Source of the DNA: Podospora anserina
Lineage: Eukaryota
Length of the DNA: 64,000 nucleotides
Assembly: GCA_017654855.1 (NCBI GenBank)
Contig: CM030334.1
Coordinates: forward strand, 3,348,001-3,412,000
Direction of reading: 5' to 3'
The translations under genes were made by a program, and so were the position numbers. Numbering within the stretch: the first letter of the stretch is position 1; every line of letters starts with the position of its first letter. The notes beneath the pieces were generated by a model, which saw only the letters and a program-made list of their open reading frames with translations, did not search any database and was not told where the DNA came from. Below are positions 23,144 to 27,309 of the stretch, piece after piece.

Positions 23144-25274
23144 ATGGCGGGACCTTCCTCTGTGTGGTCGCCCTCTGAACCCCCCTCAGCCTACTGCCTT
23201 GTGGAGCTTGGACCACCCGAGAGCTCAAGTGAGTTTGAGAGTATTCTAGCTGTTTTTCTCGCGGGGCTTTGGAGAGTTTCCCTTTCTCTCTTCATCACCA
23301 ACAGCCCAAAAAATGGACGGCCGCTTCGAACAGAACGTCACCAGCGGCATCCTTTCCCTTGCCGCTGGTGACGATGACTTCACCCGTCACCGTCCCGACC
23401 CCATCAACGTCCAAGCCGCCCAGGCCCACGCTTCTCGTTCGGGTTCTCAACGCCCAGTCGCGGTTCACAACCCGCCTGAGGCTGCGGAGAGAGCTGATAG
23501 AGGTCACTTACCCCCTCCCCAATCTGTTGTCTTTCACACCTTTGCTGCGACCTTTTCACCCACTGTTTGCTCGCTCACCCTCCCCTCTTCCTTTTTTCTC
23601 TTCTTCCCTTCTTCACTCAGCAACAACACAACGACTTGGTCAGCCTGCTAACATGAAGCCGACAGACAACAACAACGAGATGTCCCAGACATCCGCAGCG
23701 GAGGGCTTCGGCCGAGTCGGTGGCCCTGGGGAGCGCCCGGGCAGCATAGCTGCCTCGTCTGTTTACTCAGACGACCTCGCTCGCGGGGAGGGTCAATCTT
23801 GGGGACCCACTGGTGATGACGCAGATCCCTTCACTGCGTCATACACCAACGAGGAGGGGGAGCGATTCCCCTCCGAAATTCAACCGCTCCGGGTTGGTCT
23901 CGCTGACCAACCCCCTTCCGGCCTGAAGCGCTTTTCAGCGCTTCAAAACTACTCGTACCCGGCGACGTCCGCTCGCCATCAGAGCATCCTTCGGGATTAC
24001 TCCGCCTGGGCGGCCGAGCGCGGCCCTGGGCATGATGACGGTATGAATCGTCCATCTCATTTCATGTTCTTTTCACTTTTCATCCCGGTCGCTCCTCCGA
24101 ATTTCATTTTCGCCAACAGTCACTAACAAGCTTTTGGGCAGAAGGGTGGTCCAACTGGGACTACGAGGAGGCGAGAGCCAATGATCTTCGGATCTATGGC
24201 GAGGAAGACTCTGGCGAGGGTCCTTCCGGCGAGCAGTCAGACTCTTATGAGTCTATTTACGCTTGCTCCTCGCCCGACCCCGGGAAAGTCTCTCCCTCGG
24301 GAGAACCCCAAGCTCTCCCCCAGCCGACGAGAGCTCACCAGCACCACCAAGAGTCAGCTGACTCTTCTCGTCTTCTTCCTCCCCGCGCCGACCTCCAAGG
24401 CCGGGACGACTCACCGCTCGACCAATACATGCCGGTCGAGGCCCAAGCCGGCCCCTCTGCGCCTCGGCGCACGGGCACCAAGAACCTCTTCGGAGATGGC
24501 GGTTGGCTCGCTGATACCAGCTCCTCCGCGCAGCAGACCCCAGCTCAAAAGAAGCTGGAGAAGATCGCCGGTCCCAGGAGGAGCCCGAACAAGCCCAAGT
24601 CCCGCTTCCTTGGCGGCTTCATGAAGAAAGCTCGCGGGATCGTCGAATCACCCTCTCGCACCTTCGGCCCCCCGCTTCGCCGCTCGCCAGCTTCGATGCC
24701 ACAGCCGCCTCGCAGTGGTGAAGAACCTCCCACCCCGCCACCCCACATCCCTCGCCAGTCTCAGCTCGTCATCTCCCTCAGCCCTCGCGAGCAATCCCTT
24801 ATTTACTGTGAGCTCGACTTCGCCATCGCCGACGCTCTCAACGACTACATCATGTCGCAGTTCAACCTCGGCCGAGTTGATCATGCCACTATCAAGAAGA
24901 CCGCCGACGAGTGGGCCAAGAAGGGTTTACCCAAAGTCAAGGGCTTCCGCTACGACGTCGACACCCAGTTGTCCATCCTCCGCGCCCATATCGAGCAGTT
25001 CAAGTTCTACGGTCAGGCCGCCACGACCGTCCCGTCCATGCTCGGCATCATCGACACCATGAGGACCACGGCCCGCGAGATGCGTCTCCGCACTTACTGC
25101 GTTCCTGATGTGGTGATTAGCAAGTGGCTCTAGGACATCACTTCCTTCTTCGCCTTCATCTCAGTCGAGCGCCATAGAATCGACCTCCTCCAAACGGCCA
25201 AAGCCTTCTTTGAATCCTGCCGCGCGCGTGAAATCGCCCCCAGCCAGGACTCGCTGACACGCATCGACGAGTGA
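23144..25274 (+). CDS. Conserved-looking hypothetical protein, 4 exons, with an in-frame premature TAG at 25131-25133
   Basis: Introns 23229-23304 (GTGAGT..CAG), 23503-23665 (GTCACT..CTAAC..CAG) and 24041-24141 (GTATGA..CTAAC..CAG) all join in frame. The C-terminal domain 'LSPREQSLIYCELDF...GLPKVKGFRYDVDTQL...RTYCVPDVVISKWL*DITSFFAFI...' continues 46 codons past the TAG to TGA at 25272-25274. Confidence 0.75.
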
Positions 25275-25550
25275 TTCCGATGCCTATTTCGACTGGTTCC
25301 AGGCCTCTCTGCATTATCTGCACGCCTATACAAGTCTTTTCAACACCTCTCTGCATCACAAGAAGGCCTATTCGATGATCTTTCGAACGCCTATTAGTTG
25401 CGATTTGAGGCATATTTACATCAGTTTGAGGCCTATTCGATTTATTTCGACGCCTATTTCGTTTATTTTGAGGCCTGTTCGATGTTTTTCGACGCCTACC
25501 GAGTTTAGTTTGATGCCTTTTCAGTTCAGTTTGGCACCTGGTTGATTTCT
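25275..25550. repeat. Degenerate 21-bp-period array, about 13 units, consensus approximately TTTGAGGCCTATTCGATTTA
   Basis: GCCT-like cores at 25282, 25303, 25324, 25345, 25366, 25389, 25410, 25431, 25452, 25473, 25494, 25515 and 25536. Confidence 0.8.
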
Positions 25551-26466
25551 TTTCAAGGGTATATTTGCATCAAACGAAGGGAGGAGGAGTGGAATGGAAG
25601 GGAGGAGGGGTTGCATGGAAGGGGGGAGGAATTGCATGGAAAGAACGGAGTCTGGAGGACATGGAAAGGATGGAGGGCATGGAAATTTGATTTTGAAAAC
25701 TTGTTTGGGATCGGGCATTGCAAGGTGTTGGGGATAAGCGTATACACATCAGTTGAGATGGAAGATTGCGTTTGAGGCTTTGGATGATCAGTGTGATGTG
25801 TAATTGTGTCTCGTGTGCATGTGATGTGTGATCAATGTCTATTGCGCTGTGTGCTAGGTGTGCAATGTGCTTTTCAATGCCTCCATTAATTTGTCCAAGG
25901 CCTCGATTGATCTCTTGAAAGGCCTCAACCTCATCTGTCGCTCTGAAAGTCACTGCTATTGTCCCGAATGACTCCTTCAACCTGTGAATAGCTTCATCGC
26001 TTGAATACCCCAACATCCAGACACACCACCATCTGGACCCCAGCCCTGCGATAACTCCCATGTCCTCTTATAGTAAAACTCTTGATGGTGTGTTACACCT
26101 CACGTGACGAACGAAAATAACATTTGATAATGGTGTTGGTGATCGCCCCGTTTTGAAGCAGGTTTCGCTTGACGCCTTCGGTGTGACATCATAGGCCAGA
26201 CCCCCATCACCAACGACCTCATCAGCCAAGAACGAAATTCCATTTTCATAACCACAACGTCAGCACCTTTCAGCCGCCTTCCTTTTCGCACAAATCAAGA
26301 ATTCTGACCTTCATACACTAGGCACAGACGAACCCTTATTTCAGTCGGTCGCTCCCTAGTCCCTGCACCAGCAGCCGTTCAAGCTCTGATCATCCATCCC
26401 CTAGCTCACATTCTCCATCTCATCACCCACATTCAAAACACACACCACAGAGAGAGGAAAAAAAAA

Positions 26467-27309
26467 ATGCCACGATCTTACCGCTCCGACAGCTCCCCCG
26501 AGCGAGAAAGAGAAGACTACCACCGCCCCTCCCGTCACCGCTCCGTCACCCCCGGCCCCAACACCCGCGGTCCTTCCCGTCCAAGAGATTACTCCCCCTC
26601 TTCCCGCGGAGGGGGCCGCGCAGACGAGTACTACGCCTCGGGCGCTTTGCAGGAGCGACACCCCCACTTTGAATACGAAGACCACACCCCCTTTTACCGC
26701 CCCGACCCACGCGATCGTGATACGTTGCAGATCCCGCGTGACGGCTATCGCCGGTCTTCTAGGCCGAGAACAACCCGCACCAAAACCGATGATAGTTTGA
26801 CAACGGGAACGACGTATACAGGTGACACAACCACCATCATCCCTCGCTCTAGCCGTGGCCGTTCCAGATCGTCTAGCAGTTCCTCTTCGCGATCTTCATC
26901 ACCAGACATCCACCACCGCAAACGGGGTCCGATTCGGCAGGCGAAGAAATCGCTTCAGGAAACTTTTACTCCGTCTACTTCTGGCTTGGGGGTGGGGGTT
27001 CTAGGTGCTATTGTTGGTGGTCTGGCGGCACGAGAGGCGGTGGAGCATTTACCTCCGAAGTCGAGATCAAAGAGTAGATCGGGGAGTCACAGCAAGAGTA
27101 AGCATGACAAGGTTGCGGTTCTGGGCACGGTGCTAGGGGCGGCGATTGGGGGGTTGGGGGCGAATGCGATTGAGAGGCATATTGAGAGGAAAAAGGGGAT
27201 TGAGGAGAGTTGGGGACAGAGGGAGGGGGAGTTGGCTAGGTTGGAGGAACGGGTGAAGGAGGCGGAGGGGGGGAGGGATAGGGAGTATGAGAGGGGGAGG
27301 AGGTACTGA
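26467..27309 (+). CDS. Arg/Ser-rich protein with a C-terminal two-helix glycine-zipper domain
   Basis: 280-aa ORF containing 'GLGVGVLGAIVGGLAA' and 'VLGTVLGAAIGGLGANAIE'. It has a C-rich start and a G-rich end. Confidence 0.85.
   Translation: MPRSYRSDSSPEREREDYHRPSRHRSVTPGPNTRGPSRPRDYSPSSRGGGRADEYYASGALQERHPHFEYEDHTPFYRPDPRDRDTLQIPRDGYRRSSRPRTTRTKTDDSLTTGTTYTGDTTTIIPRSSRGRSRSSSSSSSRSSSPDIHHRKRGPIRQAKKSLQETFTPSTSGLGVGVLGAIVGGLAAREAVEHLPPKSRSKSRSGSHSKSKHDKVAVLGTVLGAAIGGLGANAIERHIERKKGIEESWGQREGELARLEERVKEAEGGRDREYERGRRY

What the first reader, a model, noticed from the sequence alone, without database searches (positions are those of the whole stretch)
25106..25274. Premature TAG inside a protein domain, in a predicted hairpin loop: candidate A-to-I editing-rescued gene
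Seen: an otherwise intact 4-exon gene reads ...PDVVISKWL-TAG-DITSFFAFISVERHRIDLLQTAKAFFESCRARE... and stays open, with gene-like C-ending codons, for 46 codons to TGA 25272. The TAG sits in a 10-nt loop (CTCTAGGACA) closed by AAGTGG (25122-27) pairing with TCACTT (25138-43). The editable A has U at -1, G at +1 and A at +3. Established: Sordariomycetes (Fusarium, Neurospora, Sordaria) perform ADAR-independent A-to-I mRNA editing in fruiting bodies, favouring U at -1, purines downstream and hairpin loops, and this converts premature UAG to UGG. Inference: full-length protein is made only in sexual tissue. My recollection that homologous domains continue past this position is unverified.
Basis: partly seen in the sequence, partly recalled or inferred. 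Interest (0 to 1): 0.8.

Follow-up and report, generated by a model that had tools for sequence, protein, structure and literature searches.

The report
Conserved in-frame stop, likely RNA-edited

Summary
TAG 25131-33 interrupts an ORF, and 46 further codons stay open to TGA 25272-74. The A at 25132 has U at -1, G at +1 and A at +3, and sits in a 10-nt predicted hairpin loop.

The window is from the Podospora anserina species complex.

- **The stop is neither private nor an error.** All 10 members of the 90% cluster end ...KWL. Three other Sordariales orthologues end at the same residue, and a fourth model jumps over the site. These form one clade.
- **The domain continues past the stop.** 148 of 160 family alignments cross it. 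The tail adds 21.6 bits, against a 200-shuffle maximum of about 8. It keeps coding GC3 (0.76, against 0.39 after the TGA). In a confident model it forms 1.5 helices.

Best reading: a premature stop corrected by sexual-stage ADAT A-to-I editing (confidence 0.65).

The edit itself is not shown. Three presumed-RNA contigs of unknown stage read A. The hairpin is no rarer than chance. Relatives' DNA could not be fetched.

This is a new member of a known kind.

The parts
23313..23507 (+). Possible first coding exon (MDGRFEQNV...ADRG), as in the 518-aa models of sister Podospora species. The start of the gene is unsure.
   Evidence: tblastn of P0160 residues 1-65, 97% identity. A presumed-RNA contig (X4 record 9, 23328-23552) runs colinear across the model's exon end.
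23668..24040 (+). Second coding piece (NNNEMSQTSAAEGF...GPGHDD). An alternative ATG lies at 23653.
   Evidence: tblastn of P0160 residues 65-188; sequence.
24041..24141 (+). Intron, GTATGA...CTAAC...CAG, 101 nt.
   Evidence: Sequence. The frame joins GHDD-E-GWSNW as in the sister-species proteins. It was not covered by any laid contig.
24142..25130 (+). Last exon up to the premature stop. It holds a disordered Pro/Ser-rich part, then the conserved domain from about 24768.
24768..25271 (+). Conserved six-helix domain of an unnamed Pezizomycotina family, read through the TAG (168 aa). The TAG is residue 122, inside helix 114-130. Helix 135-165 lies after it.
   Evidence: HMMER: 296 representatives at E<=0.001. 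AlphaFold2 mean pLDDT 95.7, pTM 0.88. No Pfam family.
25122..25143 (+). Predicted RNA hairpin: 6-bp stem (AAGTGG/TCACTT, closing G-U) and 10-nt loop CUCUAGGACA, with the candidate edited A as the 5th loop base.
   Evidence: It is robust to window size but not rarer than chance.
25131..25133 (+). In-frame TAG. A25132 is the candidate A-to-I site (UAG>UIG, read as UGG = Trp).
   Evidence: The stop position is shared by all orthologue models.
25134..25274 (+). 46-codon tail plus TGA, the remainder of the domain. It has no ATG of its own.
   Evidence: +21.6 bits to a family HMM; 200 shuffled tails averaged +1.6 and reached at most +8.1. GC3 is 0.76, against 0.39 just after the TGA. The Apiosordaria backusii model carries the matching FFEACRARE...IPE end.
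25275..25776 (+). Transcribed 3' region (presumed UTR) with imperfect tandem repeats at 25413-25522 (period 42/21) and 25576-25641 (period 21).
   Evidence: X1 record 3 runs 24905-25776 without any difference or joint; TRF.

Best explanation
The gene encodes a protein with a disordered N-terminal half and a C-terminal six-helix domain of an unnamed family of filamentous ascomycetes. In the common ancestor of one Sordariales clade (Podospora, Triangularia, Cercophora samala, Apiosordaria backusii), the codon for a hydrophobic helix residue became a stop. Other family members mostly have Leu or Val there. In the window the stop is TAG.

As written in DNA, the gene yields a protein that lacks the last one and a half helices of the domain. 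I infer that during sexual development the Tad2/Tad3 (ADAT) mRNA-editing activity deaminates A25132, which lies in a UAG in a hairpin loop. The ribosome then reads UGG (Trp) and continues 46 codons to TGA 25272, giving the complete domain.

Shown here: the stop, its age and fixation, the homology, the coding character and the predicted structural role of the tail, and the sequence context.

Inferred: the editing event itself, its stage specificity, and that the full-length form is the functional one.
For: 1. The stop is old and fixed. All 10 of 10 members of the 90% cluster end ...VISKWL; five are named Podospora species, one is the window's own protein, and four come from run assemblies. Triangularia setosa, Cercophora samala and T. 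verruculosa models end KWL, KWI and KWM. The A. backusii model leaves the frame at VVIG and re-enters at NFFEACRAREV...IPE. In a tree of 74 rows these 6 rows form one clade (100/99). It is sister (95/88) to three Cladorrhinum rows that read S, G or V at the site. None of the 68 rows outside the clade is interrupted there.
2. The domain continues past the stop. 148 of 160 alignments have a residue in the TAG column (L56, V31, H14, F11, W2). The next column is D in 139 of 148, as in the window. FF (91 of 98 and 85 of 96), R (62 of 64) and E (50 of 58) are all kept in the tail.
3. An HMM was built from 90 non-orthologous members without the query. It scores 200.4 bits for the read-through form and 178.8 for the truncated form. 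With 200 shuffled tails the mean is 180.4, sd 1.8, maximum 186.9.
4. The coding signature is kept. Tail GC3 is 0.76 and C3 is 0.61. The upstream domain has 0.82 and 0.57, and the 138 nt after the TGA have 0.39 and 0.26.
5. Structure: mean pLDDT 95.7. The stop falls at residue 122, inside helix 114-130, and helix 135-165 follows it.
6. Context: U at -1, G at +1, A at +3 and a hairpin loop. These are the preferences given in review PMC11156358 (whole text read).
7. No other bypass was found. Three of three contigs crossing the site are colinear with the genome, with no joint. None of the 68 frame-keeping GT/GC-AG pairs has a consensus donor, and each would delete conserved domain residues.
8. 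Precedent. Editing is established in the Sordariales Neurospora and Sordaria. A passage of PMC8092012 reports RNA-seq evidence for editing of a conserved stop codon in a Podospora gene. Qi et al. (PMC10776026, section 9 read) report that such TAGs often derive from non-TGG codons by a single change. That fits a Leu/Ser-type ancestor here.
Against: - No edited read was seen. X1 record 3 (depth 8.5), X2 record 6 (depth 4) and X5 record 17 (depth 2.1) all read A at 25132. In X4 the site is uncovered. The runs' RNA nature is a guess, their stage is unknown, and contigs keep only the major variant.
- The hairpin is not statistically unusual.
- The loop is 10 nt. From my recollection, not from a call, the tRNA anticodon loop has 7.
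- The tail is more diverged from the family than the rest of the protein. It adds 21.6 bits, against 34.8 for the nearest paralogue P0166 and 45.4-57.7 for 7 metagenome-encoded members, some of which may be close to HMM training rows. This could reflect relaxed constraint.
- Whether the relatives' stop is TAG is unknown. Only TAG can be corrected to a sense codon by A-to-I editing.
Confidence: 0.65

Rival explanations
1. Functional truncation or slow decay. The stop is simply the real end of the protein in this clade. The shortened domain works or the gene is dispensable, and the tail is an untranslated relic.
For: All database models end at the stop. Only A is seen in 3 of 3 spanning contigs. 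The tail contributes fewer bits than in paralogues. The stop clade sits on a long stem branch of 0.54, which is compatible with a change of constraint.
Against: The stop predates the split of several genera. Even so, the tail has no further stop or frameshift in 46 codons. It keeps the family's near-invariant D, FF and RE. It keeps coding GC3 of 0.76, which falls to 0.39 exactly after the TGA. It also matches the A. backusii tail, including its end. The truncation removes 1.5 helices of a compact, confidently predicted domain.
Confidence: 0.17
2. Translational readthrough of UAG without editing. A near-cognate tRNA reads the stop at low frequency, giving some full-length protein in all tissues.
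For: It would equally explain a conserved stop with a conserved, codon-biased tail and RNA contigs that read A.
Against: From my recollection, not from a call, the known readthrough-promoting contexts are UGA-CUA or UAG-CAR-YYA. The bases after the stop here are GGACAU, which do not match. In this fungal class, editing is the documented route for conserved in-frame UAG. Readthrough would not require TAG specifically.
Confidence: 0.1
3. The stop is removed by splicing of a small intron or an alternative isoform, as the Apiosordaria backusii gene model implies.
For: The A. backusii model joins VVIG to NFFEACRARE.
Against: Three of three contigs cross the region unspliced, and no joint was reported. 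The equivalent GT (25124) to AG (25203) pair is 80 nt, which breaks the frame (my reading). None of the 68 frame-keeping pairs has a GTRNGT-type donor with a well-placed CTRAY branch site. The skipped stretch encodes conserved domain columns. Gene predictors commonly insert such introns to avoid stops (my knowledge, not from a call).
Confidence: 0.04
4. Sequencing or assembly error, or a strain-private mutation.
For: None found.
Against: 10 of 10 cluster members, the orthologue models and 3 independent contigs carry the stop.
Confidence: 0.01

Closest known systems
PSC (premature stop correction) 'pseudogenes' of Fusarium graminearum: PUK1 and about 70 others (PMC11156358, whole text read; PMC10776026, abstract, passages and section 9 read)
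   Same: An in-frame UAG lies inside or before a conserved domain. The site has U at -1, purines downstream and a hairpin loop. The downstream frame is conserved. The stop is fixed across related species. The gene family is restricted to filamentous ascomycetes, often with disordered regions, and this protein also has a long Pro/Ser-rich part. The ancestral codon need not be TGG.
   Different: Editing is not demonstrated here. The host is a different order (Sordariales, Podospora). I found no homology to any PSC gene named in the texts I read. The published lists are in supplements I could not open, so overlap cannot be excluded.
CHE1 of Fusarium graminearum, a conserved PSC site (PMC11169179, abstract read)
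   Same: A PSC site conserved among related species and recognised by manual annotation. The TGG and TAA allele design is the test proposed here.
   Different: CHE1 is a zinc-finger transcription factor edited in hyphae under oxidative stress. The stage of any editing here is unknown.
Podospora 'Uhera' ORF in the Enterprise element (PMC8092012, one passage read)
   Same: Same genus. A stop codon near the start of the gene is conserved in homologues even outside Podospora, and RNA-seq indicates editing of that stop.
   Different: It is an unrelated gene (putative DEAD-like helicase) on a mobile element. The evidence sits in a supplementary figure that I could not see.
Swt1 C-terminal (HEPN) domain, PDB 4pqz
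   Same: Best structural match to the read-through domain model: Z 8.7, rmsd 3.3 over 127 of 136 residues, model range 1-153, which includes part of the post-stop helix. Several other HEPN-type chains score Z 5.5-7, including 2hsb, 3o10, 5yep and Cas13 entries. An ESM Atlas feature hit at rank 22 (score 0.77) is a cluster in which 20% of members carry HEPN_Swt1 (queried with paralogue P0166).
   Different: Z is below the level the tool calls meaningful for helical bundles. Foldseek found nothing at E<=0.001. There is no Pfam hit and no PDB sequence hit. No near-invariant His and no Rx4-6H spacing appears among the conserved columns (the motif is recalled from memory).

Membership tests
Fungal PSC (premature-stop-correction) A-to-I editing site | In-frame UAG (not UAA or UGA) interrupting an otherwise intact coding sequence | tested here: met
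   TAG 25131-33 in the frame of ORF 24039..25133; the tail is open to TGA 25272.
Fungal PSC (premature-stop-correction) A-to-I editing site | Sequence downstream of the stop encodes the rest of the homologous protein | tested here: met
   148 of 160 family alignments cross the site. The tail adds 21.6 bits, against at most +8.1 for 200 shuffled tails. GC3 is 0.76, against 0.39 after the TGA. The model places 1.5 helices after the stop.
Fungal PSC (premature-stop-correction) A-to-I editing site | Preferred editing context: U at -1, A/G at +1 and +3 | tested here: met
   T25131, G25133, A25135. The preferences are as stated in PMC11156358.
Fungal PSC (premature-stop-correction) A-to-I editing site | Edited A lies in a predicted hairpin loop | tested here: met
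   MFE hairpin with a 6-bp stem and 10-nt loop. The base rate is 78 of 232 A and 9 of 19 UA sites, so this discriminates poorly.
Fungal PSC (premature-stop-correction) A-to-I editing site | Stop retained in related species rather than being a private lesion | tested here: met
   10 of 10 cluster members and 3 further orthologue models end at the same residue; a fourth model skips the site. They form one clade at 100/99. Whether the codon is TAG in those species could not be read.
Fungal PSC (premature-stop-correction) A-to-I editing site | A>G in RNA at the site, specific to or enriched in sexual structures | tested here: inconclusive
   3 of 3 spanning contigs from presumed-RNA runs read A, at depth 2-8.5, with stage unknown, and contigs drop minor variants. 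No raw reads were available.
Fungal PSC (premature-stop-correction) A-to-I editing site | Host organism performs ADAT-dependent mRNA editing | not testable with these tools
   No genome is held for the window. Literature only: editing is reported in the Sordariales Neurospora and Sordaria, there is one passage on edited stops in Podospora, and ADAT genes are differentially expressed in P. anserina sexual development (passage).
HEPN domain (Swt1 C-terminal type, PF18731) | Match to the family profile | tested here: not met
   No Pfam family at E<=1 except an unrelated 0.28 hit for the window protein. None at E<=0.01 for 13 family members.
HEPN domain (Swt1 C-terminal type, PF18731) | HEPN helical fold | tested here: inconclusive
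   4pqz_A gives Z 8.7 over 127 residues, and other HEPN chains give Z 5.5-7. Foldseek's best hit is E 0.41. The Z is within the range of unspecific helical-bundle matches.
HEPN domain (Swt1 C-terminal type, PF18731) | Conserved Rx4-6H catalytic motif (recalled from memory) | tested here: not met
   The invariant columns are D63, Q67, C111 and D114. The near-invariant columns include R36, R54 and R108 but no His.

The most novel reading that the evidence does not exclude
One paralogue of a HEPN-like (possibly RNA-cleaving or otherwise growth-harming) helical domain family was silenced by a UAG in the ancestor of a whole clade of Sordariales. It has been kept for that entire time as an 'editing-gated' gene. 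The complete domain is made only when the sexual-stage ADAT editing activity is on. It would be the first defined, family-deep conserved PSC gene of Podospora, and a natural case for testing the survival-reproduction trade-off model outside Fusarium.
Probability: 0.15. Interest if true: 0.65.

Novelty: new member of a known kind. Interest (0 to 1): 0.45.

Why it matters
If the edit is confirmed, this would be a clean PSC gene in a classical genetic model, Podospora anserina and its relatives. In that organism allele replacement (TGG, TAA) and staged perithecial RNA are routine.

It would also be deeply conserved: the stop is shared across several genera while the tail stays coding. That pattern is what the adaptive 'restorative editing' model predicts, and the non-adaptive view must explain it.

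I found no genome-wide study of mRNA editing in Podospora in the held library. Searches returned only passing mentions. A 2026 review names Podospora among taxa for future comparison (passage).

The finding also corrects annotation. The database models of this gene in at least 9 species are probably truncated, or in A. backusii mis-spliced, at this site. The domain family itself has 296 representatives and no Pfam entry, so it is uncharacterised.

Tried and rejected
- **Window genome:** not held.
- **RNA evidence:** The look-up of sequencing runs listed no holder on record as RNA. I laid four presumed-RNA runs (X1, X2, X4, X5 of the 24 listed). Only contigs exist, with no edited base at 25132 and no joints. 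In X4, 25020-25150 is uncovered.
- **An already-assembled edited form:** I searched for database proteins that read through the stop. The 'near' search found 5 clusters and none read through the stop; only P0006 covered the whole query, by a model that skips the site. All 10 members of the Podospora cluster end at the stop. The 'shorter' and 'longer' searches found nothing. Given fragmentary, low-depth contigs, this is a weak negative.
- **Orthologue DNA:**
  - The metagenome scan with the protein found no relative.
  - The scan with alignment A1 found 13 loci at 35-50% identity. Of these, 8 read straight through the site in the matched frame. In three (L001, L002, L007) the matched frame is broken, possibly by introns. 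L012 and L013 end before the site.
So the codon identity, tail dN/dS and hairpin covariation in relatives could not be tested.
- **Function of the domain:** Pfam found nothing. Foldseek against PDB found nothing at E<=0.001. A PDB sequence profile search gave only chance-level hits. The ESM Atlas, queried with paralogue P0166, returned only 'hypothetical protein' clusters of Ascomycota plus one weak HEPN_Swt1 lead.
- **Gene name in the literature:** the locus-tag-style name I guessed from the sister species' tags returned 0 papers.
Full report
**1. What is in the sequence**

The window carries a + strand gene whose last exon (24142 onward) is open from 24039 to a TAG at 25131-25133. The same frame then stays open for 46 codons to TGA 25272-25274. 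The A of the TAG is 25132, with T at -1, G at +1, G at +2 and A at +3.

AAGTGG (25122-27) and TCACTT (25138-43) form a 6-bp stem, closed by a G-U pair, around the 10-nt loop CUCUAGGACA. This is the minimum-free-energy structure of a 62-nt stretch at -14.8 kcal/mol. It recurs with flanks of 25 to 100 nt, though not 20.

The '4-exon' statement is not confirmed. A sister species' 518-aa model maps as three pieces, and the 5' end of the gene is uncertain.

**2. Is the hairpin more than chance?**

It is not. The fold has z = -1.36, and 20 of 200 shuffles fold at least as well. With the same procedure, 78 of 232 A and 9 of 19 UA sites in this exon fall in predicted hairpin loops. The hairpin is compatible with editing but does not argue for it.

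**3. Organism, and age of the stop**

The closest database proteins are from the Podospora anserina species complex. One unnamed 234-aa member (P0161) is identical to the window's translation.

All 10 of 10 members of that 90%-identity cluster end ...PDVVISKWL. They are P. bellae-mahoneyi, P. pseudopauciseta, P. pseudocomata, P. comata, P. pseudoanserina, the window's own protein, and four from run assemblies.

Orthologue models from Triangularia setosa (KWL), Cercophora samala (KWI) and T. verruculosa (KWM) end at exactly the same residue. The Apiosordaria backusii model leaves the frame three residues earlier (VVIG) and re-enters at NFFEACRAREVTKQQGLEGIPE. That matches the window's tail AFFESCRAREIAPSQDSLTRIDE, including its end.

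I built a maximum-likelihood tree of 74 rows from the 123 columns before the stop. The rows were the window, the 5 orthologue representatives, and those database hits up to P0075 plus P0144 and P0156 that had at most 25 gaps. The other cluster members were left out.
- The six interrupted rows form one clade (100/99) on a long stem of 0.54.
- That clade is sister (95/88) to three Cladorrhinum proteins that read S, G or V at the site.
- None of the 68 rows outside the clade is interrupted there.

The stop therefore arose once, before these genera diverged. It is not a private mutation or an error.

**4. The domain continues past the stop**

An exhaustive HMMER search with the read-through sequence found 296 representatives at E<=0.001. 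I realigned the best 150 of them, together with the earlier hits.
- 148 of 160 domain alignments carry a residue in the TAG column: L56, V31, H14, F11, and W only 2.
- The following column is D in 139 of 148, as in the window.
- The tail keeps the family's FF (91 of 98 and 85 of 96), R (62 of 64) and E (50 of 58).

I built an HMM from 90 non-orthologous members without the query. It scores 200.4 bits for the read-through form and 178.8 for the truncated form. With 200 shuffled tails the score was 180.4 ± 1.8, maximum 186.9.

Composition points the same way. GC3 and C3 are 0.76 and 0.61 in the tail, 0.82 and 0.57 in the upstream domain, and 0.39 and 0.26 in the 138 nt after the TGA.

An AlphaFold2 model of the 168-aa read-through domain, made with an 80-sequence alignment, has mean pLDDT 95.7 and pTM 0.88. 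It shows six helices. The stop is residue 122, inside helix 114-130, and the long helix 135-165 follows it. A protein ending at the TAG would lack one and a half helices of a compact domain.

**5. A point against full constraint**

The tail adds only 21.6 bits. The nearest paralogue adds 34.8, and seven metagenome-encoded family members add 45-58. The tail is thus more diverged than the rest of the protein. This could mean relaxed selection. It would fit a product made only part of the time, and it would also fit slow decay.

**6. How the stop could be passed**

*Splicing is unlikely.* The three contigs that cross the site are colinear with the genome, and no joint was reported. They are X1 24905-25776, X2 24920-25384 and X5 25078-25228. 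None of the 68 frame-keeping GT/GC-AG pairs has a good donor with a placed branch site, and all would delete conserved columns.

*The tail cannot be a separate gene.* It has no ATG.

*Readthrough without editing cannot be excluded.* However, the bases after the stop do not resemble the readthrough contexts I recall.

*Editing is the documented route.* A-to-I editing by the Tad2/Tad3 ADAT complex handles conserved in-frame UAGs in this fungal class.
- The review PMC11156358 (whole text read) gives U at -1 in over 70% of sites, A/G at +1 and +3, and a preference for hairpin loops.
- It reports PUK1 plus 70 further PSC genes in Fusarium graminearum, and editing in the Sordariales Neurospora crassa and Sordaria macrospora.
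- Qi et al. (PMC10776026; passages and section 9 read) show that such TAGs arose at different nodes in Sordariomycetes, are retained, and often derive from non-TGG codons by a single change. Here L (TTG) or S (TCG) would be one step from TAG.
- For Podospora itself, one passage of PMC8092012 reports a conserved early stop codon whose editing is indicated by RNA-seq. A preprint notes ADAT genes up-regulated during P. anserina sexual development (passage).

**7. What was not shown**

No A>G was seen at 25132. The three spanning contigs read A, at depths of 2 to 8.5. The runs' RNA nature is a guess, their stage is unknown, and contigs keep only the major variant.

No database protein reads through the stop.

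No orthologue DNA could be fetched. So I could not test whether the relatives carry TAG, whether the tail has low dN/dS, or whether the stem covaries.

**8. What the protein is**

No Pfam family matches the window protein or 13 relatives. No PDB sequence matches either. Foldseek found nothing at E<=0.001.

An all-against-representatives structural search puts the yeast Swt1 C-terminal (HEPN) domain first, at Z 8.7, rmsd 3.3 and 127 of 136 residues. Several other HEPN chains score Z 5.5-7. An ESM Atlas feature search with the paralogue P0166 lists a cluster with 20% HEPN_Swt1 at rank 22.

The Z is within the range of unspecific helical-bundle matches. No conserved His or Rx4-6H-type motif is present (the motif is recalled from memory). 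I treat the HEPN resemblance as a lead only.

**9. Verdict**

The most likely mechanism is PSC-type A-to-I editing (0.65). The alternatives are functional truncation or decay (0.17), editing-independent readthrough (0.10) and splicing (0.04).

It is a new candidate member of a known kind of system. It would be notable for its depth of conservation and for lying in a genetically tractable model. The edit itself remains to be demonstrated.

Noticed in passing
window 25834: A in the window is read as G in the only contig covering it in 3 of 3 runs from 3 studies (X1, X4, X5; depths 50, 166 and 12.9). The base before it is C, not T, and the change is complete. I take it for a strain difference rather than editing. 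It lies in a much more strongly expressed transcript that starts around 25781-25820.
   Followed up: partly
window 25413-25522 and 25576-25641: Imperfect tandem repeats lie in the presumed 3' UTR: period 42/21 (about 2.4 to 3.2 copies, 75-81% matches) and period 21 (3.1 copies, 86% matches). Their function is unknown.
   Followed up: no
window 23313-23667: The 5' end of the gene is uncertain. Sister-species models start at an ATG equivalent to 23313, with an intron after about 23504. The window organism's own database protein starts at M 24429. A presumed-RNA contig (X4, 23328-23552) runs unspliced across the modelled exon end.
   Followed up: partly
window 24768-25271 (read-through domain): The unnamed Pezizomycotina domain family has 296 representatives and no Pfam entry. 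Its best structural match is the Swt1 C-terminal HEPN domain (Z 8.7), but it lacks an evident HEPN catalytic motif.
   Followed up: partly
P0006 (Apiosordaria backusii model) against window 25119-25205: The database gene model bridges the stop with an intron that removes conserved domain columns. This is probably an annotation artefact caused by the in-frame stop. The models of at least 8 other species simply end at the stop.
   Followed up: partly
window 26308-27309 (+): A neighbouring long open frame (333 aa) is rich in Arg/Ser/Pro and has a Gly/Ala-rich hydrophobic stretch. I did not examine it.
   Followed up: no
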